64,000 bases of DNA, taken from Candidatus Krumholzibacteriota bacterium (GTDB lineage: Bacteria; Krumholzibacteriota; Krumholzibacteriia; LZORAL124-64-63). Below are positions 13,516 through 40,053 of the stretch, piece by piece. How positions within the stretch are numbered: position 1 is the first letter of the stretch; every line of letters starts with the position of its first letter. Location of the stretch: NCBI GenBank assembly GCA_022711765.1, contig JAKLEB010000001.1:1186-65185 (forward strand), given 5' to 3'. The notes under the pieces are model-generated. The model saw only the letters and a program-made list of their open reading frames with translations. It made no database searches and was not told the origin of the DNA. The translations under genes were made by a program, and so were the position numbers.

Positions 13516-13529
13516 ACGGGAGGGCTCAC

Positions 13530-24112: not shown

Positions 24113-24223
24113 GCCGGCGCGCGGCAACGAGTTCGGTGTTGCCCTCGCCGGGACGTTGCGATACTTTCGGGCAGCTCAGGAGAGCCACGCTTCGAGGGAA
24201 CGGAGCAAGCCAACGGAGGGGTC

Positions 24224-25522: not shown

Positions 25523-26150
25523 CGACCTGCGGCGATCGTCGGCCGCCGGCGTGCTCGAGCTCGGCAGCGGCGACGGCTCCTTCACTGCGGTGATCCGCGA
25601 GCTCGGACGGGAGCCGCTCACCGTGGACCGCAGCTGCTGGCCGGCGGGTTCGCGACCGCGGATCCGCGGTGATGCGCTCGCACCGCCGTTGCGGCGGCGC
25701 TTCGACGTCGTGGTCGCCGCGAACCTCCTGCGCCAGCTGTGGCGTGACCTTCCGGCGGCCGGGCCGGGCGTCTGGCGGGACCTCGTCGATCGCGACGGCA
25801 GCCTCTGGATCTTCGAGGACGAGCCGCTCGCGTCGCCGCGGGCGGCCCGGAACTATCGCGACCTGCAGGCAATGCTGGCCCAGGCCGGCGCGACTGGCAG
25901 GCGCGAGCTGGTGCCGCTGGCCGAGTTCCGGCGCCGTCGCCGGGTGTGGGCGTGGAACGGCGAATGGACGTGCGGACAGGCCGTGAACGAATGGGAGGTC
26001 GCGGCCGCCGGCGTGATCGCCTGGCTCGCGTCCGGGGATCCGGAGCCGGCCACCGAGATGGCTTGTTTGATGCAACGGATCCAGCGCGACGGTCTCAGTT
26101 ACGGATGCTACTGGTGGGCGCGCTGGCGCCCGGAGGCAGCGGGATGTTGA
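25488..26150 (+). CDS. Putative class-I SAM-dependent methyltransferase
   Basis: 220 aa from an internal ATG, with a glycine-rich VLELGSGDGSF motif. Overlaps the previous gene by 35 nt. Weak assignment. Confidence 0.4.
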   Translation: MSFSPLPATFIDDLRRSSAAGVLELGSGDGSFTAVIRELGREPLTVDRSCWPAGSRPRIRGDALAPPLRRRFDVVVAANLLRQLWRDLPAAGPGVWRDLVDRDGSLWIFEDEPLASPRAARNYRDLQAMLAQAGATGRRELVPLAEFRRRRRVWAWNGEWTCGQAVNEWEVAAAGVIAWLASGDPEPATEMACLMQRIQRDGLSYGCYWWARWRPEAAGC

Positions 26151-27478
26151 GGCGACTCGCCGTCACGGTCGCGATCGGGGGCGCCGCGCTCGTCGTCGCA
26201 GCGGGCGTGCTGTGGGGTCGCAGTCCGGCGGCAGTCGAGTGGCGCAGAGCCCGCACGATCTGCATCGAGAGCGACGACTGGGGCCTCTGCGGATTCCTGC
26301 CCGACACGTCCGCGCTCGCCGGGCTGGACCGCAAGGTCCTGGCTCCCGGCCAGTTCCCCGAGGTCTACTGGCACTCGACGCTCGAGGATAGCGCCATGGT
26401 CGCCGAGCTGGCGGCGGTCTTCGCCGCTCACCGCGGCCGCGACGGACTGCCGGCGGTGCTTCAGCCGAACTACATCCTCGCGTCGTTCTCGCTGGAGCCG
26501 GACCCGCTCGACTCGACGGATCGCTGGATCGTGCGGGACATGCCGGCGACTCCACCGGGGTACGACCGGCCAGGGCTGTGGCACGCGGTGCGCGACGCGC
26601 AACAGGCCGGCGTCTGGCACCCGGAGCTCCACGGGCGCTGGCATTACGATCCGGAACTCCGCCGGCGGCGCGCGAGCGAGGAGCCGGCGGTTCGCGCGGC
26701 AGCGGCCCTGCAGATCCTGCCGTTCCCCGAGAGCGAACGCGCCTGGGAGCTCGGTGCGTGGCGGGACCTCGCCGTGATCGCTGACGAGCTGGACCGCAAT
26801 CTCGTCGTGTTCCGGCAGCTCTTCGGCTACTCGCCGCGTTCGGTGATCGCGCCCGACTACGTCTGGAATGACCGGCACGAGCAGCTCTGGTGCGAGCGGG
26901 ATCTGCGCGTGATCCAGGGCCAGCGGCAGCAGAGGCAGAGTCGCTGGCGGGGCCTCTCGGGTCGCCTGCTCAAGGTCTGGCATCGCGCATGGACGCGGTG
27001 GTATCGGCAGGACCGGGTCTACCTCGACCGCAACTGCCTGTTCGAGCCGGTCCAGCAGCATGCGCCCAGGGCGATCACCGAGGCGGCTGTGCGGGATGTC
27101 GACGCCGCCTGGCGGCGGCGCGAAGCCGCGATAGTCGAAGCCCACCGGATCAATTTCGCCCACCTGGATCCCGCCGTGCACGAGCTGGGCCGTGCCGAGC
27201 TCGCCCACCTGCTCGGCGAGTTCGCGACCCGTGGGCCGCTCTTCGTGGTCGACAGTGAGCTGGCGGATCTGCAGCGGCGAGGCACGTCCTGGGTGGTCCG
27301 CGGCGACCGGATCGTGGTCCGGAACCTGACCCGCGCGCGCCGCCTGGTCGTCGTCCCGCCGGAGGCGGCGGCCGCCGGTCAAGAGCGCGAGCCGTCGGCC
27401 GGGGCCGAGCCTCTCGTCCTGGTTCTCGAACCTGGCGAGACCAGGACCTTGCCCGCCGATGGCTCGATGAGCAACTAA
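26144..27478 (+). CDS. Hypothetical exported protein in glycan cluster
   Basis: 444 aa from the ATG at 26144, which overlaps the upstream stop. N-terminal transmembrane/signal segment (LAVTVAIGGAALVVAAGVLWG). No confident family. Confidence 0.5.
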   Translation: MLRRLAVTVAIGGAALVVAAGVLWGRSPAAVEWRRARTICIESDDWGLCGFLPDTSALAGLDRKVLAPGQFPEVYWHSTLEDSAMVAELAAVFAAHRGRDGLPAVLQPNYILASFSLEPDPLDSTDRWIVRDMPATPPGYDRPGLWHAVRDAQQAGVWHPELHGRWHYDPELRRRRASEEPAVRAAAALQILPFPESERAWELGAWRDLAVIADELDRNLVVFRQLFGYSPRSVIAPDYVWNDRHEQLWCERDLRVIQGQRQQRQSRWRGLSGRLLKVWHRAWTRWYRQDRVYLDRNCLFEPVQQHAPRAITEAAVRDVDAAWRRREAAIVEAHRINFAHLDPAVHELGRAELAHLLGEFATRGPLFVVDSELADLQRRGTSWVVRGDRIVVRNLTRARRLVVVPPEAAAAGQEREPSAGAEPLVLVLEPGETRTLPADGSMSN

Positions 27479-27491
27479 AAAACTCCTCAAT

Positions 27492-27520
27492 TAGACTCAT
27501 TTCTTTATCTATGGTAAGAT
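27492..27520 (+). promoter_or_regulatory. AT-rich sigma70-like promoter TAGACT-N17-TAAGAT for giant gene copy 1
   Basis: AT-rich island (AAAAAACTCCTCAATTAGACTCATTTCTTTATCTATGGTAAGATCA) in otherwise 70% GC DNA. The -35 hexamer is at 27492-27497 and the -10 at 27515-27520, with a 17-nt spacer. Confidence 0.5.
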
Positions 27521-27609
27521 CATCTCCTTGGTTTGCCCAGGAACGGTCGTCACCGGGCGATCGCGTCTACGGCTCGATCCGCATGCACGCGCGACCCAGG
27601 AGGATAGGC

Positions 27610-30600
27610 ATGAGCCGCCGCATGGTCGTAACCCCGCTCATCGTCATCGCCGTCTCGCTCAGTTCCCTGGTCCTGGCCGCGCAGGGTCCTGTGCTCTACG
27701 AAGGAACGTTGGAACCGGATCAGTTCGCCTGGACCGAGCTGGCCGATGGGTCGTACCGGCTCGACCTCGGCGGTGGTCGCTCGCTCGGGGTCACGGACCT
27801 GGCGGACCTGCCGGCGATCGACCTCCTGTTGCTCGTGCCCGCCGACCTGGCGATCGCCGGCGTCGAGGTCGAACCGCTCGCGATCCGCTCGATCGTTGCG
27901 CCCGGCCGCCTGGCGCTGGCGGGCGCCCTGGCGTCGAGCGCCGGCGACCTCCTGCCGCAGCGTGACCTGGAGCCGGCCGGTGGCATGTTCCCGCCGAGCT
28001 GGGGCGCCTTCGGCGGCGTTCACAGCTGGCGGGGCTACCGGTTGCTCGCCGTGACCGTGCACCCGGCGCGCCTGCGCGACGGCGATCCCGGGTCGCCCGC
28101 GCGCCTGGACGTGCTGGAGCGGTTCGCGATCCGCGCGGTCTCGACCGGCGCGCCCGCCGCGAGCCCGCCCCTCGCTCGCGAGCGTCTCGTCGCCGGGGAG
28201 CGCAGCCGCCTGGAACGGCTGTTGCGCCCGCTCGTGGCGAATCCGGAGGCGGTGACGAGCTATCAGCGCGAGGACGGGGCTGCGCTCGACAAGTCGGGCG
28301 CTCCCTTCCTGCCCACGCCCAACCCCAGCCTCGAAGGAAGCGGGATCCGGTACCTGATCGTGACGTCGGCGGCGCTGGCGCCCGAGTTCCAGCGCCTGGC
28401 GGACCACCGCACGCGCCAGGGATTGCCGGCGCTCGTGGTGACGCGCGAGTGGATCTCCGCGAATTTCCGTCGCGGCGTCGATTTCCAGGAGACCCTGAGG
28501 ATGTTCCTGCAGGACGCGTACGCCAAGTGGGGCGTGGAGTACCTGCTGCTCGGCGGGGACACGGAGATCGTGCCGACCCGCACGATCCGGAGCAACTTCT
28601 ATCCGTACGGCGGGCACACGGACATCCCGACCGACACGTACTACGCCGCGCTCGATGGGAACTGGGGCGCCGACGGCGACGGCTGGCTCGGCGAGCCGTA
28701 CGTCACGGAGGGCAACCCCGGCGACAACGCCGATCTCGCGCCGGAACTCGCCGTGGCGCGGGCGCCGGTGCGCAGCCTCCTCGGCGCCCAGCAGTTCGTG
28801 GACAAGGTGCTGGGCTACGAGGCGACGCCGGCCGGCGCGCTCTGGGCGAACCGGATCCTCTTCGCCGCGGAGGTGCTCTTCCCGTCGCCCTGGCATCCGG
28901 GCGAACCCATCACGCTCGATGGCGCCCAGTACGCGCAGACCTTGATCGACACCATCATCGAGTCGTGCTCGACCATGTCCTATGTGCGCATGTACGAGAC
29001 CGCGCAGCTCTATCCGCGCGACGCTCCGCTGACCCGCGCGGCCCTGATCGACTCGCTCAACACCGGCCACTACGGCCACGTGGACCAGTTCGGCCACGGG
29101 CACTACTTCAACATGTCGGTCGGCGACGCGAACTTCACGGTGTCCGACGCGGACGCTCTCCACAATCCGCATCACTTCCTGCTCTTCGCCGTGAACTGCG
29201 CGTCGGGCGCGTTCGATTTCTCGTGCTTGATGGAGCGGTTCGTCGAGAATCCCGACGGCGGCGCGATCGTCTCGGTCAGCGCCGCGCGTGAAGCATTCCC
29301 CTCCAATTCCTTCGGCTACCAGTCGACGTTCTACGGCGCCATGGTCTGCGACGGCGTGCTCCGCGTCCCCGACGCGTTCAACGTGGCGCGCCTGCAGTTC
29401 ATCGGCAACACGTCGCGCAACACGGTCGACCGCTGGACGCAGCTCAATGCGGCGATCATCGGCGATCCCGCGACCGGCATCTGGTGCGGTCCGCCGCTGG
29501 CGCCCTCGATCACGGCGCCCGCCAATCTCGCCGTTGGCGAGCAGACGGTGCAGGTCCAGGTCGTGGCGGGCGGTCGGCCGGCGGTCGGCGCCGACGTCTG
29601 TCTGGTCAAGGACGGCGAGACGTACGCGTGGGCCGTCACCGATCCGGCGGGTCAGGCGTCGCTGACGATCGTCCCGCAGACGGCGGGCACGGTCACCTTG
29701 ACGGTTTCGGGCGCCAACCTCGTGCGGACGACCCGCACGATCCCGGTCGCCGGCAGCGCGACGTACGTGGCCATGACCGGATTCGGGATCGGCGACCAGT
29801 CGCCCAACGGCAACGGCAACGGCGTCGCCGAGGCCGGCGAGACGATTTCGCTGGCGCTGCAGTTGCAGGATCTCGGCGGCGGCGGCGCGACCGGGCTGAA
29901 TGTCACGTTGACCAGCGACGATCCGCAGCTCGTGGTGCTCGACGGCACGGCGAGCGCGGGCAACATCGCGCCGGGCGGATCGACCACCAACCTGGACCCG
30001 CTCGTGGTCAAGCCGCAGACCATCATGCGTGACGGTTTGCGCATCGCGATGCGGATCGTCGTGACGGCGAACGGCGGCGGCAGCTGGGTCAGCAACGGCC
30101 TGCTCGAGGTGCGGGTGCCCGAGCCGGAGGTCGCGCGCCTCGTCGTCGACGACTCCGTCTACGGCGACGGCGACGGCGTGGCGGAGAGCAACGAACGCCT
30201 GGTCCTGCGTCCGTACGTGAAGAACTACGGCAGCGGACGACTCGACCAGCTCGTCGCGCAGGTGACGAACGCGGCGGCGGGGGTCACGGTGCACAGCGCC
30301 TTCGCGTTCTACGCCAACGTCGACCTGCTGGAGGAGGAGACCTACCAGTCGGGCGAGCTCTCGGTGACCCTGGCCAACATCGGGCAGCTCCAGCCGTGCC
30401 GCGTCGATTTCCAGGACAACTACGGGCGCACCTTCACCCAGCCGCTCGAATTCAACGAGCCGGCGGCTCCCGGCCTGCCGGCCGCCGACGCGACGATCGC
30501 GTCGGACGCGATCGCGCTGCGCTGGGACCCGGTCGGCGGGGCGGCGACCCTGGGCTACCACGTCTATCGCGCGGCGGCCGAGGCGGGGCCGTTCAGCCGG

Positions 30601-32406
30601 GCCAACCCCGACCTGCTGCAGGGGATCGCGTACTTCGAGGACCGCGGACTCATGCAGCTGACGCCGTACTGGTACAAGGTCACCGCCGTGGACACGTTCC
30701 TGCAGGAGAGCGATTTCTCGCCGGTCGTGACCCAGGGGACCATGCCGCCCGAGCTCACCAATTTCCCGCTGGAGTTCCAGTTGCAGACGAGCGGCCACAT
30801 CGCCGTGGGGGACATCGACGGGGACGGGCGGTTGGAGATCGTCCTCGCGTCGGACGAGGTCTACGCGTGGAACGAGGACGGCAGCGAGCTCGTCGACGGG
30901 GACAACGACGCCCAGACCACCGGTCCTTTGACGGGAGTCGACGGTCAGTTCGAGCCGTCCGGCGTGGTCCTGGCGGACCTCGACGGTGAGCCGGGGCTGG
31001 AGATCATCGCGAGCGAGCGCCTGAACGCGCGCCAGATCCACGTCTTCAGGGCGGACGGCAGCGAGCTTCCGGGCTGGCCGCGGACCATGCAGAACTCCTG
31101 GAACTGGGCGACGCCGGCGGTCGGCGACGTCGACGGCGACGGCGACAACGAGGTCGTGGTCAACGATACGGCCGGGCGCACGTTCGTCTGGCACCATACC
31201 GGAGTCGAGCTGCGCGACGGGGACAGCAACCCCGCCACCAACGGCGTGTTCGTCGATCGCGACGAGAGCTGGGGCTACTCGTCGCCCGCGCTCTTCGACC
31301 TGGACGGGGACGGCGCCTGCGAGATCATCTTCGGCACGCGCTACTTCACGCCGGGCAACGCGCTGCTCGCGTATCGTTACAACGGCAGTCAGGCGCAGAA
31401 CTTCCCGTTCACGACGGGCAGCGCGCAGATCATCTGCGCGCCGGCGATCGCCGATCTCGATCGGGACGGCGACAAGGAGATCGTCTTCTTCACGACCGCT
31501 CACTACCTCTACGCGATCCACCACAACGCGGCGGCGTACCCGGGCTTCCCGGTCTTCTTCAACACGAACTGGGACGACTCTCCGGGCCCCAGCCCGGCGG
31601 TCGGCAATTTCGACGGCGACAACGACCTGGAGATCCTCTGGCCGGTCAACGGCGGTTCGTTCCGCCTGGACCTGATCGCGGTCGACACGGGCCGCTTCGA
31701 CGGCACGACCGGCGACATCATGGCGGGCTGGCCGGTGCAGCTGCCGGCGAACTCGGAGGGCAGTCCGGTCGTGGGCGACATCAACGGCGACGGCCTCTCG
31801 GATGTCGTGCAGCCCGTCGGCAGCGACGAGACCGAAACGCCGGACCTCATCTTCGCCGTCGACCACGCGGGAGAGGGGATCCCGGGCTTCCCGATCCGGC
31901 TCGACGGGATCCCGCGCTCGACGCCGGTGATCTGCGACCTGGATCTCGACGGCGACGTGGAGGTCGTGTACGGGTCGTGGGACCGGTTGCTCCACGCCTG
32001 GGACCTGCCGGCGCCCTTCGACGCCGCGAACGTGCCGTGGCCGACCTTCCACGGCAATCCGCAGCGGACCGGCGTCGCCGTGCAGGTGAGCATCACCGGC
32101 GTCGACGATCCGGTGGTGCCGAGCATCTTCACCGTCATGCCGCCGCACCCCAATCCGTTCAATCCGGTCACCACTCTGCGCCTCTACGTGGCGCCGGGAC
32201 CGGACCGCCGGCTCGACGTGGCGGTGTACGACCTGCGGGGCCGCCGGATCCGGCAGCTGCACGCGGGCGACGCCGCGGCGGGGTGGCACGACCTGACCTG
32301 GGACGGGCGCGACGACACGGGTCGCGGCCAGGCCAGCGGCGTGTACTTCGTCCGCGCGCAGCAGGCGGCAGAGTCGCGGACCTTCAAGCTGACGCTCGTG
32401 AAATAG
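27610..32406 (+). CDS. Giant secreted protein, copy 1: gingipain-like C25 cysteine peptidase + CARDB/Ig-like + FN3 + 7x FG-GAP beta-propeller + T9SS C-terminal sorting domain
   Basis: 1598 aa from the ATG at 27610, after an AGGAGG ribosome-binding site. Signal peptide MSRRMVVTPLIVIAVSLSSLVLAAQG. The C25-like catalytic region shows His (QFGHGHYFNMSVGD) and Cys (LLFAVNCASGAFD) in a gingipain-like arrangement. NGNGNGVAEAGETISL CARDB-like repeats are present. An FN3 domain is present (LRWDPVGG...YHVYRAA...YWYKVTAVD). There are seven FG-GAP-type calcium-binding repeats (GDIDGDGRLEIV, GDVDGDGDNEVVV, FDLDGDGACEIIFG, ADLDRDGDKEIVF, GNFDGDNDLEILW, GDINGDGLSDVV, CDLDLDGDVEVVYG). The C-terminus (PNPFNPVTTLRLYV...VAVYDLRGRRIRQL...WDGRDDTGRGQASGVYFVRAQ...RTFKLTLVK) matches the T9SS type-A sorting domain. 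Confidence 0.8.
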   Translation: MSRRMVVTPLIVIAVSLSSLVLAAQGPVLYEGTLEPDQFAWTELADGSYRLDLGGGRSLGVTDLADLPAIDLLLLVPADLAIAGVEVEPLAIRSIVAPGRLALAGALASSAGDLLPQRDLEPAGGMFPPSWGAFGGVHSWRGYRLLAVTVHPARLRDGDPGSPARLDVLERFAIRAVSTGAPAASPPLARERLVAGERSRLERLLRPLVANPEAVTSYQREDGAALDKSGAPFLPTPNPSLEGSGIRYLIVTSAALAPEFQRLADHRTRQGLPALVVTREWISANFRRGVDFQETLRMFLQDAYAKWGVEYLLLGGDTEIVPTRTIRSNFYPYGGHTDIPTDTYYAALDGNWGADGDGWLGEPYVTEGNPGDNADLAPELAVARAPVRSLLGAQQFVDKVLGYEATPAGALWANRILFAAEVLFPSPWHPGEPITLDGAQYAQTLIDTIIESCSTMSYVRMYETAQLYPRDAPLTRAALIDSLNTGHYGHVDQFGHGHYFNMSVGDANFTVSDADALHNPHHFLLFAVNCASGAFDFSCLMERFVENPDGGAIVSVSAAREAFPSNSFGYQSTFYGAMVCDGVLRVPDAFNVARLQFIGNTSRNTVDRWTQLNAAIIGDPATGIWCGPPLAPSITAPANLAVGEQTVQVQVVAGGRPAVGADVCLVKDGETYAWAVTDPAGQASLTIVPQTAGTVTLTVSGANLVRTTRTIPVAGSATYVAMTGFGIGDQSPNGNGNGVAEAGETISLALQLQDLGGGGATGLNVTLTSDDPQLVVLDGTASAGNIAPGGSTTNLDPLVVKPQTIMRDGLRIAMRIVVTANGGGSWVSNGLLEVRVPEPEVARLVVDDSVYGDGDGVAESNERLVLRPYVKNYGSGRLDQLVAQVTNAAAGVTVHSAFAFYANVDLLEEETYQSGELSVTLANIGQLQPCRVDFQDNYGRTFTQPLEFNEPAAPGLPAADATIASDAIALRWDPVGGAATLGYHVYRAAAEAGPFSRANPDLLQGIAYFEDRGLMQLTPYWYKVTAVDTFLQESDFSPVVTQGTMPPELTNFPLEFQLQTSGHIAVGDIDGDGRLEIVLASDEVYAWNEDGSELVDGDNDAQTTGPLTGVDGQFEPSGVVLADLDGEPGLEIIASERLNARQIHVFRADGSELPGWPRTMQNSWNWATPAVGDVDGDGDNEVVVNDTAGRTFVWHHTGVELRDGDSNPATNGVFVDRDESWGYSSPALFDLDGDGACEIIFGTRYFTPGNALLAYRYNGSQAQNFPFTTGSAQIICAPAIADLDRDGDKEIVFFTTAHYLYAIHHNAAAYPGFPVFFNTNWDDSPGPSPAVGNFDGDNDLEILWPVNGGSFRLDLIAVDTGRFDGTTGDIMAGWPVQLPANSEGSPVVGDINGDGLSDVVQPVGSDETETPDLIFAVDHAGEGIPGFPIRLDGIPRSTPVICDLDLDGDVEVVYGSWDRLLHAWDLPAPFDAANVPWPTFHGNPQRTGVAVQVSITGVDDPVVPSIFTVMPPHPNPFNPVTTLRLYVAPGPDRRLDVAVYDLRGRRIRQLHAGDAAAGWHDLTWDGRDDTGRGQASGVYFVRAQQAAESRTFKLTLVK

Positions 32407-32424
32407 GCGTCGGCTCGGAGCACA

Positions 32425-32460
32425 GCGCCGGGACCCGCCAGCGGCGGGCCCGGCGCTTCT
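32425..32460 (+). terminator. GC-rich stem-loop (putative intrinsic terminator) after copy 1
   Basis: GCGCCGGGaCCCGCC-agc-GGCGGGCCCGGCGC forms a 14-bp stem with one bulge. It is followed by TTCT, a weak U-tract. It is duplicated at 37600..37635. Confidence 0.4.
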
Positions 32461-32666
32461 GCGCGCGCCGACCCGTCCGGTCCGCTCGATCGCGAATCTG
32501 GGAGACCGGCCGGCGCTCGTGCTGGCGCCTACATGTGCTGACCGGTCTTGTCGGATCTCGCGGCGCGGGAGTTCTCGGGCGCCGGACGCTGCGACGCATA
32601 ATTCCGGAGAATACCGGGCTGATCGACCCTGTCGACGACTCCATTGGCAACTTCGATTCTCCTGAT

Positions 32667-32695
32667 TTGACTCGTTTCTTTATTTGTGGTAAGAT
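32667..32695 (+). promoter_or_regulatory. AT-rich sigma70-like promoter TTGACT-N17-TAAGAT for giant gene copy 2
   Basis: -35 TTGACT at 32667-32672, 17-nt spacer, -10 TAAGAT at 32690-32695. It is homologous to the copy-1 promoter but with a better -35 hexamer. Confidence 0.5.
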
Positions 32696-32784
32696 CATCT
32701 CCTTGGTTTGCCCAGGAACGGTCGTCACCGGGCGATCGCGTCTACGGCTCGATCCGCATGCACGCGCGACCCAGGAGGATAGGC

Positions 32785-35700
32785 ATGAGCCGCCGCATGG
32801 TCGTAACCCCGCTCATCGTCATCGCCGTCTCGCTCAGTTCCCTGGTCCTGGCCGCGCAGGGTCCTGTGCTCTACGAAGGAACGTTGGAACCGGATCAGTT
32901 CGCCTGGACCGAGCTGGCCGATGGGTCGTACCGGCTCGACCTCGGCGGTGGTCGCTCGCTCGGGGTCACGGACCTGGCGGACCTGCCGGCGATCGACCTC
33001 CTGTTGCTCGTGCCCGCCGACCTGGCGATCGCCGGCGTCGAGGTCGAACCGCTCGCGATCCGCTCGATCGTTGCGCCCGGCCGCCTGGCGCTGGCGGGCG
33101 CCCTGGCGTCGAGCGCCGGCGACCTCCTGCCGCAGCGTGACCTGGAGCCGGCCGGTGGCATGTTCCCGCCGAGCTGGGGCGCCTTCGGCGGCGTTCACAG
33201 CTGGCGGGGCTACCGGTTGCTCGCCGTGACCGTGCACCCGGCGCGCCTGCGCGACGGCGATCCCGGGTCGCCCGCGCGCCTGGACGTGCTGGAGCGGTTC
33301 GCGATCCGCGCGGTCTCGACCGGCGCGCCCGCCGCGAGCCCGCCCCTCGCTCGCGAGCGTCTCGTCGCCGGGGAGCGCAGCCGCCTGGAACGGCTGTTGC
33401 GCCCGCTCGTGGCGAATCCGGAGGCGGTGACGAGCTATCAGCGCGAGGACGGGGCTGCGCTCGACAAGTCGGGCGCTCCCTTCCTGCCCACGCCCAACCC
33501 CAGCCTCGAAGGAAGCGGGATCCGGTACCTGATCGTGACGTCGGCGGCGCTGGCGCCCGAGTTCCAGCGCCTGGCGGACCACCGCACGCGCCAGGGATTG
33601 CCGGCGCTCGTGGTGACGCGCGAGTGGATCTCCGCGAATTTCCGTCGCGGCGTCGATTTCCAGGAGACCCTGAGGATGTTCCTGCAGGACGCGTACGCCA
33701 AGTGGGGCGTGGAGTACCTGCTGCTCGGCGGGGACACGGAGATCGTGCCGACCCGCACGATCCGGAGCAACTTCTATCCGTACGGCGGGCACACGGACAT
33801 CCCGACCGACACGTACTACGCCGCGCTCGATGGGAACTGGGGCGCCGACGGCGACGGCTGGCTCGGCGAGCCGTACGTCACGGAGGGCAACCCCGGCGAC
33901 AACGCCGATCTCGCGCCGGAACTCGCCGTGGCGCGGGCGCCGGTGCGCAGCCTCCTCGGCGCCCAGCAGTTCGTGGACAAGGTGCTGGGCTACGAGGCGA
34001 CGCCGGCCGGCGCGCTCTGGGCGAACCGGATCCTCTTCGCCGCGGAGGTGCTCTTCCCGTCGCCCTGGCATCCGGGCGAACCCATCACGCTCGATGGCGC
34101 CCAGTACGCGCAGACCTTGATCGACACCATCATCGAGTCGTGCTCGACCATGTCCTATGTGCGCATGTACGAGACCGCGCAGCTCTATCCGCGCGACGCT
34201 CCGCTGACCCGCGCGGCCCTGATCGACTCGCTCAACACCGGCCACTACGGCCACGTGGACCAGTTCGGCCACGGGCACTACTTCAACATGTCGGTCGGCG
34301 ACGCGAACTTCACGGTGTCCGACGCGGACGCTCTCCACAATCCGCATCACTTCCTGCTCTTCGCCGTGAACTGCGCGTCGGGCGCGTTCGATTTCTCGTG
34401 CTTGATGGAGCGGTTCGTCGAGAATCCCGACGGCGGCGCGATCGTCTCGGTCAGCGCCGCGCGTGAAGCATTCCCCTCCAATTCCTTCGGCTACCAGTCG
34501 ACGTTCTACGGCGCCATGGTCTGCGACGGCGTGCTCCGCGTCCCCGACGCGTTCAACGTGGCGCGCCTGCAGTTCATCGGCAACACGTCGCGCAACACGG
34601 TCGACCGCTGGACGCAGCTCAATGCGGCGATCATCGGCGATCCCGCGACCGGCATCTGGTGCGGTCCGCCGCTGGCGCCCTCGATCACGGCGCCCGCCAA
34701 TCTCGCCGTTGGCGAGCAGACGGTGCAGGTCCAGGTCGTGGCGGGCGGTCGGCCGGCGGTCGGCGCCGACGTCTGTCTGGTCAAGGACGGCGAGACGTAC
34801 GCGTGGGCCGTCACCGATCCGGCGGGTCAGGCGTCGCTGACGATCGTCCCGCAGACGGCGGGCACGGTCACCTTGACGGTTTCGGGCGCCAACCTCGTGC
34901 GGACGACCCGCACGATCCCGGTCGCCGGCAGCGCGACGTACGTGGCCATGACCGGATTCGGGATCGGCGACCAGTCGCCCAACGGCAACGGCAACGGCGT
35001 CGCCGAGGCCGGCGAGACGATTTCGCTGGCGCTGCAGTTGCAGGATCTCGGCGGCGGCGGCGCGACCGGGCTGAATGTCACGTTGACCAGCGACGATCCG
35101 CAGCTCGTGGTGCTCGACGGCACGGCGAGCGCGGGCAACATCGCGCCGGGCGGATCGACCACCAACCTGGACCCGCTCGTGGTCAAGCCGCAGACCATCA
35201 TGCGTGACGGTTTGCGCATCGCGATGCGGATCGTCGTGACGGCGAACGGCGGCGGCAGCTGGGTCAGCAACGGCCTGCTCGAGGTGCGGGTGCCCGAGCC
35301 GGAGGTCGCGCGCCTCGTCGTCGACGACTCCGTCTACGGCGACGGCGACGGCGTGGCGGAGAGCAACGAACGCCTGGTCCTGCGTCCGTACGTGAAGAAC
35401 TACGGCAGCGGACGACTCGACCAGCTCGTCGCGCAGGTGACGAACGCGGCGGCGGGGGTCACGGTGCACAGCGCCTTCGCGTTCTACGCCAACGTCGACC
35501 TGCTGGAGGAGGAGACCTACCAGTCGGGCGAGCTCTCGGTGACCCTGGCCAACATCGGGCAGCTCCAGCCGTGCCGCGTCGATTTCCAGGACAACTACGG
35601 GCGCACCTTCACCCAGCCGCTCGAATTCAACGAGCCGGCGGCTCCCGGCCTGCCGGCCGCCGACGCGACGATCGCGTCGGACGCGATCGCGCTGCGCTGG

Positions 35701-37581
35701 GACCCGGTCGGCGGGGCGGCGACCCTGGGCTACCACGTCTATCGCGCGGCGGCCGAGGCGGGGCCGTTCAGCCGGGCCAACCCCGACCTGCTGCAGGGGA
35801 TCGCGTACTTCGAGGACCGCGGACTCATGCAGCTGACGCCGTACTGGTACAAGGTCACCGCCGTGGACACGTTCCTGCAGGAGAGCGATTTCTCGCCGGT
35901 CGTGACCCAGGGGACCATGCCGCCCGAGCTCACCAATTTCCCGCTGGAGTTCCAGTTGCAGACGAGCGGCCACATCGCCGTGGGGGACATCGACGGGGAC
36001 GGGCGGTTGGAGATCGTCCTCGCGTCGGACGAGGTCTACGCGTGGAACGAGGACGGCAGCGAGCTCGTCGACGGGGACAACGACGCCCAGACCACCGGTC
36101 CTTTGACGGGAGTCGACGGTCAGTTCGAGCCGTCCGGCGTGGTCCTGGCGGACCTCGACGGTGAGCCGGGGCTGGAGATCATCGCGAGCGAGCGCCTGAA
36201 CGCGCGCCAGATCCACGTCTTCAGGGCGGACGGCAGCGAGCTTCCGGGCTGGCCGCGGACCATGCAGAACTCCTGGAACTGGGCGACGCCGGCGGTCGGC
36301 GACGTCGACGGCGACGGCGACAACGAGGTCGTGGTCAACGATACGGCCGGGCGCACGTTCGTCTGGCACCATACCGGAGTCGAGCTGCGCGACGGGGACA
36401 GCAACCCCGCCACCAACGGCGTGTTCGTCGATCGCGACGAGAGCTGGGGCTACTCGTCGCCCGCGCTCTTCGACCTGGACGGGGACGGCGCCTGCGAGAT
36501 CATCTTCGGCACGCGCTACTTCACGCCGGGCAACGCGCTGCTCGCGTATCGTTACAACGGCAGTCAGGCGCAGAACTTCCCGTTCACGACGGGCAGCGCG
36601 CAGATCATCTGCGCGCCGGCGATCGCCGATCTCGATCGGGACGGCGACAAGGAGATCGTCTTCTTCACGACCGCTCACTACCTCTACGCGATCCACCACA
36701 ACGCGGCGGCGTACCCGGGCTTCCCGGTCTTCTTCAACACGAACTGGGACGACTCTCCGGGCCCCAGCCCGGCGGTCGGCAATTTCGACGGCGACAACGA
36801 CCTGGAGATCCTCTGGCCGGTCAACGGCGGTTCGTTCCGCCTGGACCTGATCGCGGTCGACACGGGCCGCTTCGACGGCACGACCGGCGACATCATGGCG
36901 GGCTGGCCGGTGCAGCTGCCGGCGAACTCGGAGGGCAGTCCGGTCGTGGGCGACATCAACGGCGACGGCCTCTCGGATGTCGTGCAGCCCGTCGGCAGCG
37001 ACGAGACCGAAACGCCGGACCTCATCTTCGCCGTCGACCACGCGGGAGAGGGGATCCCGGGCTTCCCGATCCGGCTCGACGGGATCCCGCGCTCGACGCC
37101 GGTGATCTGCGACCTGGATCTCGACGGCGACGTGGAGGTCGTGTACGGGTCGTGGGACCGGTTGCTCCACGCCTGGGACCTGCCGGCGCCCTTCGACGCC
37201 GCGAACGTGCCGTGGCCGACCTTCCACGGCAATCCGCAGCGGACCGGCGTCGCCGTGCAGGTGAGCATCACCGGCGTCGACGATCCGGTGGTGCCGAGCA
37301 TCTTCACCGTCATGCCGCCGCACCCCAATCCGTTCAATCCGGTCACCACTCTGCGCCTCTACGTGGCGCCGGGACCGGACCGCCGGCTCGACGTGGCGGT
37401 GTACGACCTGCGGGGCCGCCGGATCCGGCAGCTGCACGCGGGCGACGCCGCGGCGGGGTGGCACGACCTGACCTGGGACGGGCGCGACGACACGGGTCGC
37501 GGCCAGGCCAGCGGCGTGTACTTCGTCCGTGCGCAGCAGGCGGCAGAGTCGCGGACGTTCAAGCTGACGCTCGTGAAATAG
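32785..37581 (+). CDS. Giant secreted protein, copy 2 (identical protein): C25 peptidase + CARDB + FN3 + FG-GAP propeller + T9SS CTD
   Basis: 1598 aa. The protein is identical to copy 1. At the DNA level there are only two synonymous differences near the 3' end (CGC to CGT, ACC to ACG). Confidence 0.8.
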   Translation: MSRRMVVTPLIVIAVSLSSLVLAAQGPVLYEGTLEPDQFAWTELADGSYRLDLGGGRSLGVTDLADLPAIDLLLLVPADLAIAGVEVEPLAIRSIVAPGRLALAGALASSAGDLLPQRDLEPAGGMFPPSWGAFGGVHSWRGYRLLAVTVHPARLRDGDPGSPARLDVLERFAIRAVSTGAPAASPPLARERLVAGERSRLERLLRPLVANPEAVTSYQREDGAALDKSGAPFLPTPNPSLEGSGIRYLIVTSAALAPEFQRLADHRTRQGLPALVVTREWISANFRRGVDFQETLRMFLQDAYAKWGVEYLLLGGDTEIVPTRTIRSNFYPYGGHTDIPTDTYYAALDGNWGADGDGWLGEPYVTEGNPGDNADLAPELAVARAPVRSLLGAQQFVDKVLGYEATPAGALWANRILFAAEVLFPSPWHPGEPITLDGAQYAQTLIDTIIESCSTMSYVRMYETAQLYPRDAPLTRAALIDSLNTGHYGHVDQFGHGHYFNMSVGDANFTVSDADALHNPHHFLLFAVNCASGAFDFSCLMERFVENPDGGAIVSVSAAREAFPSNSFGYQSTFYGAMVCDGVLRVPDAFNVARLQFIGNTSRNTVDRWTQLNAAIIGDPATGIWCGPPLAPSITAPANLAVGEQTVQVQVVAGGRPAVGADVCLVKDGETYAWAVTDPAGQASLTIVPQTAGTVTLTVSGANLVRTTRTIPVAGSATYVAMTGFGIGDQSPNGNGNGVAEAGETISLALQLQDLGGGGATGLNVTLTSDDPQLVVLDGTASAGNIAPGGSTTNLDPLVVKPQTIMRDGLRIAMRIVVTANGGGSWVSNGLLEVRVPEPEVARLVVDDSVYGDGDGVAESNERLVLRPYVKNYGSGRLDQLVAQVTNAAAGVTVHSAFAFYANVDLLEEETYQSGELSVTLANIGQLQPCRVDFQDNYGRTFTQPLEFNEPAAPGLPAADATIASDAIALRWDPVGGAATLGYHVYRAAAEAGPFSRANPDLLQGIAYFEDRGLMQLTPYWYKVTAVDTFLQESDFSPVVTQGTMPPELTNFPLEFQLQTSGHIAVGDIDGDGRLEIVLASDEVYAWNEDGSELVDGDNDAQTTGPLTGVDGQFEPSGVVLADLDGEPGLEIIASERLNARQIHVFRADGSELPGWPRTMQNSWNWATPAVGDVDGDGDNEVVVNDTAGRTFVWHHTGVELRDGDSNPATNGVFVDRDESWGYSSPALFDLDGDGACEIIFGTRYFTPGNALLAYRYNGSQAQNFPFTTGSAQIICAPAIADLDRDGDKEIVFFTTAHYLYAIHHNAAAYPGFPVFFNTNWDDSPGPSPAVGNFDGDNDLEILWPVNGGSFRLDLIAVDTGRFDGTTGDIMAGWPVQLPANSEGSPVVGDINGDGLSDVVQPVGSDETETPDLIFAVDHAGEGIPGFPIRLDGIPRSTPVICDLDLDGDVEVVYGSWDRLLHAWDLPAPFDAANVPWPTFHGNPQRTGVAVQVSITGVDDPVVPSIFTVMPPHPNPFNPVTTLRLYVAPGPDRRLDVAVYDLRGRRIRQLHAGDAAAGWHDLTWDGRDDTGRGQASGVYFVRAQQAAESRTFKLTLVK

Positions 37582-37599
37582 GCGTCGGCTCGGAGCACA

Positions 37600-37635
37600 G
37601 CGCCGGGACCCGCCAGCGGCGGGCCCGGCGCTTCT
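37600..37635 (+). terminator. GC-rich stem-loop (putative intrinsic terminator) after copy 2
   Basis: Identical hairpin to 32425..32460. Confidence 0.4.
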
Positions 37636-37730
37636 GCGCGCGCTCCCCGCGAACGCGACCGATCGCCTCATCACTTGACCGGGATCGCCGCGGCCACCTA
37701 GCATCACGGCAAGCCGAGCGAGGAGTTCGC

Positions 37731-39371
37731 ATGAGATCGATCGCGCCGGGCGACCGCTCAGGGTGGCTGGTCGCCGTCGTTTTGGGAATGGTGGCGGGCT
37801 GCCAGGGGGATGCGCCGCAGCCTGCGCCTCCGGCGGACGCGACCGCCGCGCCGTCGCGCGGCGGAACGGTCGTCGTGGCGCTGCCCGACGAGCCGGATGT
37901 CCTCAATTCCCTGATCCGCACGTCCGCAGTCGCCGGTTCGGTGCTCTCGCTGCTGCAGGCGGGGCTCGCGGAGATGGGTGAGGATCTGCAGTGGTACCCG
38001 ATGATCGCCGAGCGCTGGGAGGTCGCGCCGGACAGCCTCGCGATCACCTACCACCTGCGCCCGTGGACCTGGGAGGACGGGACGCCGCTGACCGCCGACG
38101 ACGTGCGGGCGAGCTACGAGCTCCTGACCGATCCGCGCATCGCCAGCCCGCGCGCCGATCAGCTGCGACCCGTTGTCAGGGTGACGACGCCGGACCTCGC
38201 GACGGTCCGGTATGAATTCGCGGCGCCCCAGGCGCAGGCAGTCCAGACGACCGTCCACTCGCTGTTGCCGGCTCACCGCGTGCGCTCGCTGGATCCGAGC
38301 GCCGTCGCGACCTGGCCGTTGAATCGATCGCCGCTCGCGTCCGGCCCATTCCGGCTCGAATCGTGGGAACCGGGACGCCAGCTCGTGCTGGCGCCGAATC
38401 CACACTATCCTCTGGCGGCTCCCTGGCTCGATCGCGTCATCCTGCGCATCGTGCCCGACGAGACGGCGCGCGTCATGGCGCTGGAGACCGGCGAGATCGA
38501 TCTCGTCTTCGACGTGCCGGCGACGGCCGCGGCGCGCCTGGCGACGGATCCGCAGCTGCGGGTCGTGGAAGTCCCGGGTCGCGTCTTCGCCTTCCTGATG
38601 TGGAACGTGCGCCGACCGGTCCTGCGGGATCCGGCGGTCCGTCGCGCACTGTCCCTGGCCCTGGATCGCGAGCGGTTCGTGGCCGCCCTGACGGGCGGTT
38701 TCGGCGCGCCGGCCGCGTCCTACTTGCCGCCGGCGCTCTGGAACCACCACCGCGGGCTGGTGCCCGATCCCTGCCGGCCCGATTCGGCCGCCGCCCTGCT
38801 CGCCGCGGCGGGGTGGGTGGACCACGACGGCGACGGCGTGCGGGAACGATCGGGCGTGCCGTTGCGCCTGGAGGTGATCTTCCGGGGCGGCGACACCGCG
38901 CGGGAAAACGGCGTTGCGCTCGTGCGCCGGTATCTGACCGCGGTCGGCGTCGATGTCTCGTTGCGTGCGCTGGAGCTGGCGACGGCGCTCGAGTTCCTGC
39001 GCGCGGGTCGTTTCGACGCGTATTTCGGAGAATACCAGGCCAACCTCTACGCGGACCCCTCGCCGCTCGTGCGGTCCGGCGCGAGCGATCGCTTCAATTT
39101 CGGCGGCTACGCGAACGCGCGCGTCGATTCCCTGCTCGACCGCGCGCTCGCGGAGCCGGACCGGACGCGAAGTCTGCCCATCTGGTACGCGGTGCAGGAA
39201 GCGCTGGTCGCCGACCCGCCGGCCGCGGTGCTGTATTATCCGCGCCAGCTGGTCGCCTACAATCGACGTGTGCGCGACGTGCGCCCACACCTGCTCTCGC
39301 CGCTCAACAATCTCGCGGAGTGGTGGATCGCACCCGCGGACCGCCGCTGGGCGGATTCCAGTTCGCGGTAA
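37731..39371 (+). CDS. ABC-transporter solute-binding protein family 5 (oligopeptide/nickel-type), lipoprotein, orphan
   Basis: 546 aa from the ATG at 37731, after a GAGGAG ribosome-binding site. Lipoprotein signal with lipobox (VAVVLGMVAGC). SBP_bac_5-like throughout. No permease or ATPase genes are adjacent. Confidence 0.75.
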   Translation: MRSIAPGDRSGWLVAVVLGMVAGCQGDAPQPAPPADATAAPSRGGTVVVALPDEPDVLNSLIRTSAVAGSVLSLLQAGLAEMGEDLQWYPMIAERWEVAPDSLAITYHLRPWTWEDGTPLTADDVRASYELLTDPRIASPRADQLRPVVRVTTPDLATVRYEFAAPQAQAVQTTVHSLLPAHRVRSLDPSAVATWPLNRSPLASGPFRLESWEPGRQLVLAPNPHYPLAAPWLDRVILRIVPDETARVMALETGEIDLVFDVPATAAARLATDPQLRVVEVPGRVFAFLMWNVRRPVLRDPAVRRALSLALDRERFVAALTGGFGAPAASYLPPALWNHHRGLVPDPCRPDSAAALLAAAGWVDHDGDGVRERSGVPLRLEVIFRGGDTARENGVALVRRYLTAVGVDVSLRALELATALEFLRAGRFDAYFGEYQANLYADPSPLVRSGASDRFNFGGYANARVDSLLDRALAEPDRTRSLPIWYAVQEALVADPPAAVLYYPRQLVAYNRRVRDVRPHLLSPLNNLAEWWIAPADRRWADSSSR

Positions 39372-39379
39372 TATTACTG
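39366..39379. promoter_or_regulatory. Palindromic operator-like site CGGTAATATTACTG (core GTAATATTAC), upstream copy
   Basis: The 10-bp core is a perfect palindrome and AT-rich in GC-rich DNA. An identical 14-mer recurs at 39423..39436. The two bracket a TTGACA-N17-TATCGT promoter. Confidence 0.5.
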
Positions 39380-39385
39380 CCGTTG

Positions 39386-39414
39386 TTGACACTTCCGGAC
39401 GATCGGATTATCGT
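39386..39414 (+). promoter_or_regulatory. Sigma70-like promoter TTGACA-N17-TATCGT for the H1-like gene
   Basis: TTGACA at 39386-39391 and TATCGT at 39409-39414. An AAGGAG ribosome-binding site lies at 39461 and the ATG at 39472. Confidence 0.45.
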
Positions 39415-39422
39415 GCGCGGGA

Positions 39423-39436
39423 CGGTAATATTACTG
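39423..39436. promoter_or_regulatory. Palindromic operator-like site CGGTAATATTACTG, downstream copy
   Basis: Second identical 14-mer. It is positioned just downstream of the -10 element. Confidence 0.5.
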
Positions 39437-39471
39437 GTCACCGCGCGAGCCGTGCGAGAAAAGGAGTCTCC

Positions 39472-40053
39472 ATGCCGACGAATCTGACCCGATTGCTCTC
39501 CAGACTGAGCCGCGCCGACCTACACAGGCTGCTCGTGGCCAAGGAGGAGATCGAGCACCTGGAGGAGCGGCGCACCGAGCTCGCGAGCGAACTGGCCGAG
39601 GTCGACCAGAAGCTGGACCGCCTCATCGGACGGGTGGCAGGCACCCGCCGCGGCCCGGGCCGGCCCGCCGGCCGGAGGTCCGGCAGGAAGGTCGGCCGGA
39701 GAACCGTCAAGAAGGCCGCGAAGAAGACCGCCAGACGAGCTGCCAGGACGACCGCCGGGAAGGCGGCGAAGACGGCGGCCAGGAAGACCGCGACGAAGAC
39801 CGCGCGGAAGGGCGGCGAGCGCCCCGCGCCGCGCGGCCGGCGGACCGGCGGGCAGCGGGCCACTCTCGAGAACGTGGTGATCGGCGTCCTCGCGAACAAA
39901 GGGGAGCCGATGAGCTTCAAGGCGATCCTCGAGACGATCACGGCCGGCAAGCTGTTCCGCAGCCGCAGCCGCGACTTCTCGAACGTCCTGAGACGGACCC
40001 TGTCCACGAGTCGTCGCGTGAAGCGGGTCTCGCGCGGGGTGTACGGGACCTGA
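39472..40053 (+). CDS. Histone H1-like / lysine-alanine-rich nucleoid-associated protein with C-terminal winged-helix (HARE-HTH / linker-histone-like) domain
   Basis: 193 aa. N-terminal coiled coil (EEIEHLEERRTELASELAEVDQKLDRL). A central low-complexity basic tract (KKAAKKTARRAARTTAGKAAKTAARKTATKTARK) follows. The C-terminal 60-aa globular domain (GEPMSFKAILETITAGKLFRS...VKRVSRGVYGT) is winged-helix-like. Confidence 0.6.
   Translation: MPTNLTRLLSRLSRADLHRLLVAKEEIEHLEERRTELASELAEVDQKLDRLIGRVAGTRRGPGRPAGRRSGRKVGRRTVKKAAKKTARRAARTTAGKAAKTAARKTATKTARKGGERPAPRGRRTGGQRATLENVVIGVLANKGEPMSFKAILETITAGKLFRSRSRDFSNVLRRTLSTSRRVKRVSRGVYGT

What the first reader, a model, noticed from the sequence alone, without database searches (positions are those of the whole stretch)
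27483..37643. Near-perfect tandem duplication (2 x about 5 kb) of a complete promoter, giant secreted C25-peptidase/FG-GAP/T9SS gene and hairpin
Two copies at an exact 5175-bp offset encode byte-identical 1598-aa proteins. The copies differ only at the edges: 4 mismatches and a 1-nt indel in the 40 nt around the -35 promoter element, and two synonymous third-position changes in the last 60 nt of the CDS. A divergent-flank, identical-core pattern is what ongoing gene conversion between real paralogues produces. Purely synonymous differences argue that both copies are kept functional rather than being an assembler artefact. Each copy has its own AT-rich promoter island and GC hairpin. About 190 bp of unique DNA separates the copies. 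No transposase or terminal inverted repeats are present, so the duplication is not mediated by an IS element. Recent amplification of a giant surface protease/adhesin gene could reflect dosage selection or the first step of paralogue diversification.
Basis: seen in the sequence. Interest (0 to 1): 0.85.

Follow-up and report, generated by a model that had tools for sequence, protein, structure and literature searches.

The report
Old tandem peptidase duplication, kept near-identical
A Krumholzibacteria genome carries two back-to-back, almost identical copies of a large secreted cysteine-peptidase gene; the duplication is real and older than it looks, its copies are kept alike by gene conversion, and their apparent perfect identity is partly a short-read assembly effect, so this is an ordinary case of a known process.

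Summary
The repeat is present as described. It has two 4,979-bp units at a 5,175-bp offset, each with a promoter, a 1,598-aa C25/FG-GAP/T9SS-tail gene and a hairpin. Three points change the reading.

1. The "unique" 196-bp spacer is not unique. It consists of three abutting, collinear fragments, about 76% identical, of the oligopeptide-binding-protein gene that follows copy B. The original unit was therefore peptidase plus binding protein. The middle binding-protein copy decayed by deletion. The duplication is old, at roughly half the distance to the nearest relative. Relatives at 75%, 66% and 52% identity have one copy in the same synteny.

2. Peptidase copies that are at least 99.6% alike next to 76% remnants require homogenisation. 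This supports gene conversion more strongly than the edge SNPs do.

3. Five assemblies of this population, at least two of them SPAdes short-read, are identical over 20 kb of flanks. They differ at 16 sites inside the repeat, including six amino-acid changes. Every interior allele is written into both copies. Only variants within about 115 bp of unique DNA are ever phased. "Byte-identical proteins" is therefore probably a collapsed consensus.

This is a known phenomenon of modest interest. Copy number and true between-copy differences need long reads.

The parts
26144..27478 (+). Upstream 444-aa gene of unknown function, the left flank. Its last ~27 nt plus the following ~11 nt (27452-27489) may be the decayed left end of the original duplicated unit.
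   Evidence: Gene call and conserved synteny. No Pfam or NCBIfam hit. Similarity of 27452-27489 to 32627-32664 is about 65%, only weakly above shuffles (p about 0.01-0.03).
27490..27609 (+). Copy A promoter and 5' UTR. The -35 is TAGACT (27492-27497), followed by an extended -10 TGgTAAGAT (-10 hexamer 27515-27520) and RBS AGGAGG. Four changes relative to copy B (27493, 27499, 27509, 27511) are derived.
   Evidence: Orthologue L005 has TTGACTCG...TTTATTTGTGGTAATGT, the copy-B state at all four sites. Copy A is below the promoter-scan threshold.
27610..32406 (+). Copy A CDS, 1598 aa. It has a signal peptide, Peptidase_C25 (aa 248-622, H496/C530), a C25 C-terminal Ig domain (629-717), an undefined middle region, an FG-GAP propeller (about 1060-1460) and a T9SS type-A / FlgD_ig C-terminal domain (1514-1598).
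32425..32456 (+). GC-rich hairpin after copy A, a putative terminator without a U tract.
32469..32664 (+). Spacer. Positions 32474-32618 are three abutting collinear fragments of an SBP_bac_5 gene copy (SBP nt 608-665, 874-904, 1253-1310; 109/144 identical). Positions 32619-32664 are undefined or a possible remnant of the upstream-gene 3' end.
   Evidence: Spliced alignment scores 61, against dinucleotide shuffles at 34.2 +/- 3.7 (max 48) and 50 control targets at max 40. BLAST E = 6e-9 and 9e-7. Identity falls with phylogenetic distance: 76/63/61/48% to the window, L005, L006 and L095 SBP genes.
32665..32784 (+). Copy B promoter and 5' UTR. The -35 TTGACT (32667-32672), a 17-nt spacer and TGgTAAGAT (-10 hexamer 32690-32695) match the ancestral state.
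32785..37581 (+). Copy B CDS, 1598 aa. In this assembly it is identical in protein to copy A.
37600..37631 (+). GC-rich hairpin after copy B.
   Evidence: Identical to 32425-32456
37731..39371 (+). Intact SBP_bac_5 (Opp/Nik-type family-5 solute-binding protein) gene with its own promoter TTGACC-18-TAGCAT (37675-37704). It is the source family of the spacer fragments and the right flank.
29397..29426 (+). Variable patch, also at 34572-34601. It has 9 substitutions in 30 nt and 5 amino-acid changes (aa 597-606) in assembly ERZ795055. Further variable sites lie at 30555, 30762, 30781, 30958, 31779, 32355 and 32382, and at the same positions +5175.

Best explanation
This is a lineage-specific, chromosomal tandem duplication in a Candidatus Krumholzibacteria population. 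The original unit ran from about the 3' end of the upstream 444-aa gene, through the C25 peptidase gene, and at least 1.3 kb into the downstream oligopeptide-type binding-protein (SBP) gene.

The redundant middle SBP copy was not maintained. Deletions and substitutions reduced it to about 145 bp, which now forms most of the 196-bp spacer. Both peptidase cassettes (promoter, gene, hairpin) were retained. Homologous recombination (gene conversion) between them keeps them at least 99.6% identical.

The conversion zone ends where homology ends. On the right that is the deletion breakpoint at 32468/37643. On the left there is a short gradient (18/22 identical over 27490-27511). As a result copy A has a drifted, weaker -35 box.

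The perfect identity of the interior in any one assembly is probably a consensus. Short-read SPAdes graphs hold the 4.8-kb core as one edge walked twice. The 16 sites at which assemblies of the same population disagree are therefore most simply residual differences between the two copies.

Shown here: the repeat anatomy, the SBP origin of the spacer, the single-copy state in relatives, and repeat-confined disagreement between assemblies.

Inferred: gene conversion as the homogenising process, dosage benefit as the reason both copies are kept, and assignment of variable sites to copy A versus copy B.
For: - Repeat anatomy.
- The spacer is collinear SBP fragments (z = 7.3; no control target above 40 against 61). 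Identity to orthologous SBP columns falls with phylogenetic distance, 76 > 63 > 61 > 48%.
- At sites where the window and L005 SBP genes differ, the spacer carries the window state 22 times and the L005 state 4 times. The duplication therefore happened in this lineage, roughly midway along the branch.
- Window and L005 are 78% identical in C25 nucleotides, and 59% identical at 4-fold sites. Unconverted copies of that age should differ by hundreds of sites. At most 22 are seen (4 upstream plus up to 16 in the CDS, plus an indel).
- One copy with the same synteny is found in L005 (75% aa), L006-L009 (66%) and L095/L096 (52%, a 2.37-Mb contig). One copy in other contexts is found in L094 and L097/98.
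- The duplication with an identical spacer appears in five assemblies.
- On collapse: two assemblies have SPAdes NODE_..._cov names.
- On collapse: there are zero differences in 20,014 bp of unique DNA against 16 sites in the 4,979-bp unit (P about 6e-12 per site, or about 2.5e-6 for 8 events).
- On collapse: every interior allele is present in both copies of its assembly, and all four gametes occur between sites 207 bp apart.
- On collapse: the two 3'-edge sites appear as CC/TG (window, L003), CC/CC (L001) and TG/TG (L010, L012), which shows collapse directly.
- Outside the patch, 6 of 7 variants are synonymous, so both sequence types are under purifying selection.
Against: - No reads are available. 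No read spans either copy, and depth over the repeat is unknown.
- Copy number could exceed two, or one copy could carry an internal lesion that the assembler smoothed away.
- The variable sites could instead be polymorphism between co-existing strains or between samples. In that case the copies in each cell might really be identical.
- The left-end remnant is statistically weak, so the left breakpoint is uncertain.
- The identity of the spacer blocks is inflated by choosing the best local alignment, so the age estimate is rough.
- No conversion tract has been observed directly.
Confidence: 0.7

Rival explanations
1. Recent tandem amplification. The unit was copied recently under dosage selection. 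The copies are alike because they are young, and the spacer is filler or unrelated DNA.
For: Near-identity of the units. Single copy in all sampled relatives. Tandem amplifications are common and unstable in bacteria (general knowledge).
Against: A simple tandem duplication leaves a junction, not 196 bp of foreign DNA. The spacer is homologous to the adjacent SBP gene at only about 76% and has been cut down by at least three internal deletions. It carries window-lineage SBP states 22:4. Adjacent DNA cannot differ about 60-fold in divergence without homogenisation of the genes. Four substitutions are concentrated in the first 22 nt of the unit.
Confidence: 0.07
2. Assembly artefact in topology. 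The chromosome has one copy, and the loop through the spacer reflects a mis-traversed graph cycle, a minority variant or an excised 5.2-kb circle. Alternatively the array has three or more copies, collapsed to two.
For: The assemblies whose contig names are visible are short-read SPAdes assemblies. A 4.8-kb exact core cannot be spanned by short reads. SPAdes walks simple loops once by default (my knowledge of the assembler). Collapse is seen directly at the 3'-edge sites.
Against: The spacer joins the unit's end to the unit's start in five assemblies, with identical sequence. It has a coherent biological origin as a decayed SBP copy. It is linked to its own promoter variant, which is the ancestral one. 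A non-replicating circle would not persist across samples. A single-copy chromosome cannot contain the spacer at all. More than two copies cannot be excluded and would not change the main reading.
Confidence: 0.1
3. The copies are truly identical in each cell. The 16 variable sites are differences between co-existing or successive strains, each homogenised across both copies. This would be concerted evolution observed in near real time, or diversifying selection on a surface protein.
For: In each assembly both copies carry the same interior alleles. The five-residue patch departs from the family consensus at otherwise conserved N600, T601 and V606, which looks like an adaptive or imported change. 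Tandem repeats convert at high rates (general knowledge).
Against: It needs many independent mutation-conversion-fixation events, including all four gametes within 207 bp, in populations with no substitution in 20 kb of flanks. The same 3'-edge pair appears phased in two assemblies and collapsed to either allele in three, which is an assembler signature.
Confidence: 0.13

Closest known systems
Concerted evolution of duplicated bacterial genes by RecA-dependent gene conversion. [quoted passage not shown]
   Same: The paralogues are far more alike than the age of the duplication allows, and far more alike than either is to orthologues (at least 99.6% against 78% nt to L005). The homogenised zone ends where homology ends.
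   Different: The copies here are directly adjacent in tandem rather than dispersed. The gene is a 4.8-kb secreted peptidase rather than a core translation or pathway gene. The age is read from a decayed co-duplicated neighbour gene rather than from a species tree. Conversion itself is inferred, not observed.
Peptidase family C25: gingipains RgpB/Kgp (PDB 1CVR, 4IEF) and the T9SS sortase PorU (PDB 6ZA2).
   Same: Pfam PF01364 scores 196.8 bits. RgpB His211/Cys244 align to H496/C530, which are invariant in 45 homologues. A C25-type Ig domain follows the catalytic domain. There is a T9SS C-terminal sorting domain. The best PDB sequence hit is PorU, at E = 3e-8.
   Different: The protein is about 1600 aa, with a roughly 250-aa N-terminal region that has no family hit and a six-to-seven-blade FG-GAP propeller that gingipains and PorU lack. 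There are no haemagglutinin/adhesin domains. The PorU equivalog model scores 91.7 bits against a cutoff of 420. No activity or substrate is known.
Tandem gene amplification under dosage selection (amplification-selection models in Salmonella and E. coli; from my own knowledge).
   Same: Head-to-tail copies of a complete expression unit. A possible dosage benefit for a secreted peptidase. Copy number may be variable.
   Different: Such amplifications are young and have clean junctions. Here the junction region is an old, decayed pseudogene remnant, and the duplication is seen with an identical spacer in five assemblies.
Collapsed near-identical repeats in short-read (de Bruijn graph) metagenome assemblies.
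   Same: The interior is identical by construction. Only variants within about a k-mer or read length of unique DNA are phased. Different assemblies pick different alleles.
   Different: The repeat itself is not an artefact. Only its degree of identity and its copy number are uncertain.

Membership tests
Peptidase family C25 (Pfam PF01364; gingipain/PorU clan CD fold) | Match to the family profile above the curated threshold | tested here: met
   196.8 bits against a gathering score of 23, aa 248-622, profile positions 1-372 of 374
Peptidase family C25 (Pfam PF01364; gingipain/PorU clan CD fold) | Catalytic His-Cys dyad (RgpB His211/Cys244) present and conserved | tested here: met
   H496 and C530 align to His211 and Cys244 of 1cvr_A. 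They are invariant in 45 homologues.
Peptidase family C25 (Pfam PF01364; gingipain/PorU clan CD fold) | Proteolytic or transpeptidase activity | not testable with these tools
   Needs biochemistry
T9SS sortase PorU (NCBIfam NF033707) | Full-length match above the equivalog cutoff | tested here: not met
   91.7 bits against a cutoff of 420. Only the C25 domain aligns (aa 244-622 to profile 365-730 of 1095). The PorU2 N-terminal model scores 21 against 450.
T9SS type-A cargo (C-terminal sorting domain, TIGR04183) | C-terminal sorting domain at the extreme C terminus, plus an N-terminal signal peptide | tested here: met
   TIGR04183 scores 24.9 bits against a cutoff of 23, aa 1514-1594 of 1598. 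Pfam FlgD_ig scores 36.2 against 27. The N terminus MSRRMVVTPLIVIAVSLSSLVLAAQG reads as a Sec signal by eye. The match is marginal in score. Presence of a T9SS in this genome was not checked.
FG-GAP / VCBS beta-propeller | Repeated FG-GAP blades with DxDxDG calcium-binding motifs | tested here: met
   PF13517 scores 87.2 bits with 6 stretches on aa 1061-1520. Six 42-nt DNA repeats per copy, spaced 153-171 nt apart, encode the D-x-D-G-D motifs.
Concerted evolution by gene conversion | Paralogues more similar to each other than to orthologues | tested here: met
   At least 99.6% between copies, against 78% nt (75% aa) to the nearest orthologue L005
Concerted evolution by gene conversion | Duplication demonstrably older than the similarity of the paralogues implies | tested here: met
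   The co-duplicated SBP remnant is 76% identical and eroded by deletion. It branches within the window lineage, 22:4.
Concerted evolution by gene conversion | Phased copies showing conversion tracts or shared derived changes | not testable with these tools
   The interior of the repeat is unphased in all five assemblies. Long reads are needed.
IS- or transposon-mediated duplication | Transposase gene or terminal inverted repeats at the unit boundaries | tested here: not met
   No inverted repeats of 40 nt or more in 25000-40000. Neighbouring genes are housekeeping.
Diversity-generating retroelement target (considered for the 30-nt patch) | Substitutions confined to adenine positions of a nearby template repeat, plus a reverse transcriptase | tested here: not met
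   The nine changes involve all four bases. No second copy of either patch version was found in the window or in any fetched locus. No RT gene is in the window.

The most novel reading that the evidence does not exclude
The two copies are not redundant. Conversion keeps almost all of the gene uniform, but one copy carries a derived five-residue patch (Y597, I600, A601, T603, A606) at the end of the catalytic domain, plus S1117A. The upstream copy has a weakened -35 box. On this reading a phylum-wide, normally single-copy T9SS-secreted C25 peptidase is being split into two differently expressed, differently specific enzymes, and short-read assembly hides this. Alternatively the array may be a copy-number-variable dosage device.
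Probability: 0.12. Interest if true: 0.5.

Novelty: new member of a known kind. Interest (0 to 1): 0.3.

Why it matters
Biologically, this is a clean example of tandem paralogues of a large secreted peptidase evolving in concert in an uncultured phylum. It carries its own age marker, the decayed co-duplicated binding-protein gene. That marker shows that selection kept the peptidase copy and discarded the transporter copy.

Methodologically, it is a caution. In short-read MAGs, an 'identical core with divergent edges' pattern cannot be taken as evidence for anything, because the assembler produces it. Comparing independent assemblies of the same population exposes the hidden variation.

None of this would surprise a specialist in bacterial genome evolution.

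Tried and rejected
- The genome-contig scan with the family alignment chose generic motifs (the T9SS tail PNPFNP and an FG-GAP blade). It returned mostly unrelated T9SS cargo from many phyla, so it was useless for counting copies. I used exact-protein look-ups of six homologues instead.
- The metagenome-contig scan for a 40-nt spacer sequence found nothing. That collection apparently lacks these contigs.
- A literature search for the sample or assembly accessions, and for Krumholzibacteriota plus type IX secretion, found nothing. Sample provenance and the relation between the five assemblies remain unknown.
- I searched for a donor of the 30-nt patch in the window and in all fetched loci, allowing up to 8 mismatches. 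None was found. A DGR-like mechanism was rejected because of the base pattern and the absence of a template.
- Direct alignment of the spacer to the immediate flanks (the last 300 bp upstream and the first 300 bp downstream) was not significant. The homology appeared only when the whole downstream gene was allowed as target.
- The upstream 'U-prime' remnant is suggestive only.
- No Rfam families or tRNAs are in the window.
- Structure prediction was not run. The tools return no coordinates, so it could not place the patch relative to the active site.
Full report
**1. The observation**

A scan at a fixed offset of 5175 nt finds one long match, 27490-32468 against 32665-37643. Within it, 27512-32354 is 4843/4843 identical. 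The first 22 nt hold four mismatches (27493, 27499, 27509, 27511). The last 114 nt hold two (32355, 32382).

Reading from the ATG at 27610 / 32785, with AGGAGG 8 nt upstream, both copies give the same 1598-aa protein. The two 3' differences are synonymous third-position changes, CGC/CGT and ACC/ACG. A 196-bp spacer (32469-32664) separates the units.

No long inverted repeats and no transposase are present. Each unit ends in a strong GC hairpin. The 81-nt context folds at -54.4 kcal/mol, z = -4.3, with no U tract.

**2. What the gene is**

The domains found are:
- Peptidase_C25 (aa 248-622, 196.8 bits)
- the C25 C-terminal Ig domain
- six FG-GAP blades
- a FlgD_ig / T9SS type-A C-terminal domain (TIGR04183, 24.9 bits against a cutoff of 23)

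The catalytic His211/Cys244 of gingipain RgpB (1CVR) align to H496/C530. Both residues are invariant across 45 homologues. The best solved relative by sequence is PorU (6ZA2, E = 3e-8). However, the PorU equivalog model scores 91.7 bits against a cutoff of 420, so I do not call the protein PorU.

Homologues of about 1590-1625 aa with the same architecture are widespread in Candidatus Krumholzibacteria MAGs, at 43-75% identity.

The window is ordinary chromosome. It contains GroEL, panBC, an MrfA-like helicase, SurA-like, glnA, an envelope-glycan cluster, then the peptidase, an Opp/Nik-type family-5 binding protein, HIT, PfkB, LexA, HSP20, Lon and heptosyltransferases.

**3. Relatives have one copy**

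The same gene order (Wzy_C, GT4, Glycos_transf_4, two unknown genes, C25 peptidase, SBP_bac_5, HIT, PfkB, LexA, HSP20, Lon) occurs with a single peptidase gene in three sets of relatives:
- the nearest relative, L005, at 75% aa
- four assemblies of the next relative, L006-L009, at 66%
- a 52% relative on a 2.37-Mb contig, L095

Two further homologues in other contexts are also single-copy. The duplication is therefore specific to this lineage.

**4. The spacer is a decayed gene copy**

The spacer does not resemble the immediately adjacent flanks. It does resemble the binding-protein gene downstream of copy B. Three directly abutting blocks match in the same order and strand:

| Spacer block | SBP nt | Identical |
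|---|---|---|
| 32474-32529 | 608-665 | 42/56 |
| 32530-32560 | 874-904 | 22/31 |
| 32561-32618 | 1253-1310 | 45/57 |

A spliced alignment scores 61. Dinucleotide shuffles give 34.2 +/- 3.7 (max 48). Fifty other stretches of the window give at most 40.

Measured at the orthologous columns, identity of the spacer blocks falls with phylogenetic distance: 76% (own SBP), 63% (L005), 61% (L006), 48% (L095). Where the window and L005 SBP genes differ, the spacer has the window state 22 times and the L005 state 4 times.

So the spacer derives from this lineage's own SBP gene after the split from L005. The duplicated unit was peptidase plus at least 1.3 kb of SBP, about 6.5 kb or more in total. The middle SBP copy then lost about 700 bp at its 5' side and two internal segments of about 210 and 350 bp, and drifted to about 24% divergence. 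The right-hand end of the perfect repeat (32468/37643) is therefore a deletion breakpoint. A possible remnant of the upstream gene's 3' end lies at 32627-32664, but it is only weakly supported.

**5. Why this implies homogenisation**

Window and L005 differ at 22% of C25 nucleotides and at about 41% of 4-fold sites. The 22:4 split and the 24% divergence of the remnant place the duplication roughly midway along that branch. This is a rough inference, and the local alignment flatters the identity. Peptidase copies of that age should differ at hundreds of positions. At most about 22 differences are seen.

Adjacent DNA cannot differ that much in divergence unless the gene copies are repeatedly homogenised. 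The known process that does this is recombinational gene conversion, as in other prokaryotic cases of concerted evolution (PMC6053082). The gradient at the left edge (about 65%, then 18/22, then 100%) fits a conversion zone that stops where homology runs out.

At all four left-edge sites copy B has the state seen in L005 (TTGACT ... TTTATTTGTGG). Copy A is derived (TAGACT) and falls below the promoter-scan threshold.

**6. Why the perfect interior should not be trusted**

The exact protein occurs on several assemblies: NCBI DAOTEW010000003.1, JGI Ga0209310_1000001, ENA ERZ795055 NODE_1_length_2057935_cov_107.95, and ENA ERZ761563 NODE_12_length_432625_cov_60.8. The last two carry SPAdes short-read contig names. 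All have two copies and the identical spacer.

Compared with the window over 17610-47581, these assemblies show no difference in 20,014 bp of unique DNA. They show 16 variable sites inside the 4,979-bp unit:
- a patch of nine substitutions in 30 nt (aa 596-606; five amino-acid changes)
- S1117A
- six synonymous sites

P that all fall inside the unit is about 6e-12 per site, or 2.5e-6 counting 8 events. Every interior allele is present in both copies of the assembly that has it. Sites 207 bp apart show all four allele combinations among five assemblies.

Phasing depends only on distance from unique sequence:

| Distance from unique DNA | Assemblies that phase the variant |
|---|---|
| 4-22 nt | 5 of 5 |
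| 87-114 nt | 2 of 5 (the other three write CC/CC or TG/TG) |
| 690 nt or more | 0 of 5 |

That is the behaviour of a graph in which the core is a single edge traversed twice and bubbles are popped to one allele. The simplest reading is that the real copies differ at up to about 20 sites, including six residues, and that each assembly shows a random mosaic.

The alternative is that the variants are strain or sample differences, each homogenised across both copies. This cannot be excluded without reads. It is less parsimonious, and I give it about 0.13.

Outside the patch, 6 of 7 variants are synonymous, so both sequence types look functional. The patch version in ERZ795055 departs from the family consensus at N600, T601, R603 and V606 and has no donor in the DNA I hold.

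**7. Is the duplication itself an artefact?**

Unlikely. The spacer joins the unit's end to its start in five assemblies. It has a coherent origin as a decayed gene. It is tied to its own, ancestral-type, promoter variant.

What the assemblies cannot show is whether there are exactly two copies, or whether both are intact throughout.

**8. Verdict**

These are real paralogues under gene conversion with no IS element. It is wrong on recency and on the spacer, and it rests on evidence that the assembler would generate anyway.

This is a new example of a known phenomenon in a poorly known phylum. It has a useful internal age marker and a useful methodological lesson. Interest is about 0.3.

Noticed in passing
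window 29397-29426 and 34572-34601: In assembly ERZ795055 only, nine substitutions within 30 nt change five residues (F597Y, N600I, T601A, R603T, V606A) just before the invariant R608-W609-T610 at the end of the C25 domain. The variant departs from the family consensus. No donor sequence was found, and the base pattern is not DGR-like.
   Followed up: partly
window 21600-27478 and 37731-39371; L005, L006, L095: The peptidase gene always sits between an envelope-glycan cluster (Wzy_C-type ligase/polymerase, GT4, Glycos_transf_4, two unknown proteins of 220 and 444 aa) and an oligopeptide-type binding protein. This order is conserved down to 52% identity. It hints at a functional link: peptide uptake, or glycan anchoring of T9SS cargo.
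   Followed up: partly
They differ at seven positions per 24.8 kb, all inside the repeat.
   Followed up: partly
window 11197-14732: A DEAD/Helicase_C/WHD_HRQ1/MZB helicase is followed by an RNase_H_2-superfamily protein. This is the arrangement of the MrfA/MrfB DNA-repair pair.
   Followed up: no
window 31114-31965 and 36289-37140: Each copy holds six 42-nt direct repeats, spaced 153-171 nt apart and 74-79% identical to the reference copy. They encode the D-x-D-G-D calcium-binding loops of successive FG-GAP blades.
   Followed up: yes
window 56516-59784: A 'MutL protein' family (PF13941) gene of 709 aa is followed by a protein with a weak RnfC_N hit, downstream of an acyl-CoA dehydrogenase. 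The function is unclear.
   Followed up: no
window 1-64000: No tRNA genes and no Rfam family at gathering threshold anywhere in 64 kb. Almost all genes are on the + strand.
   Followed up: yes
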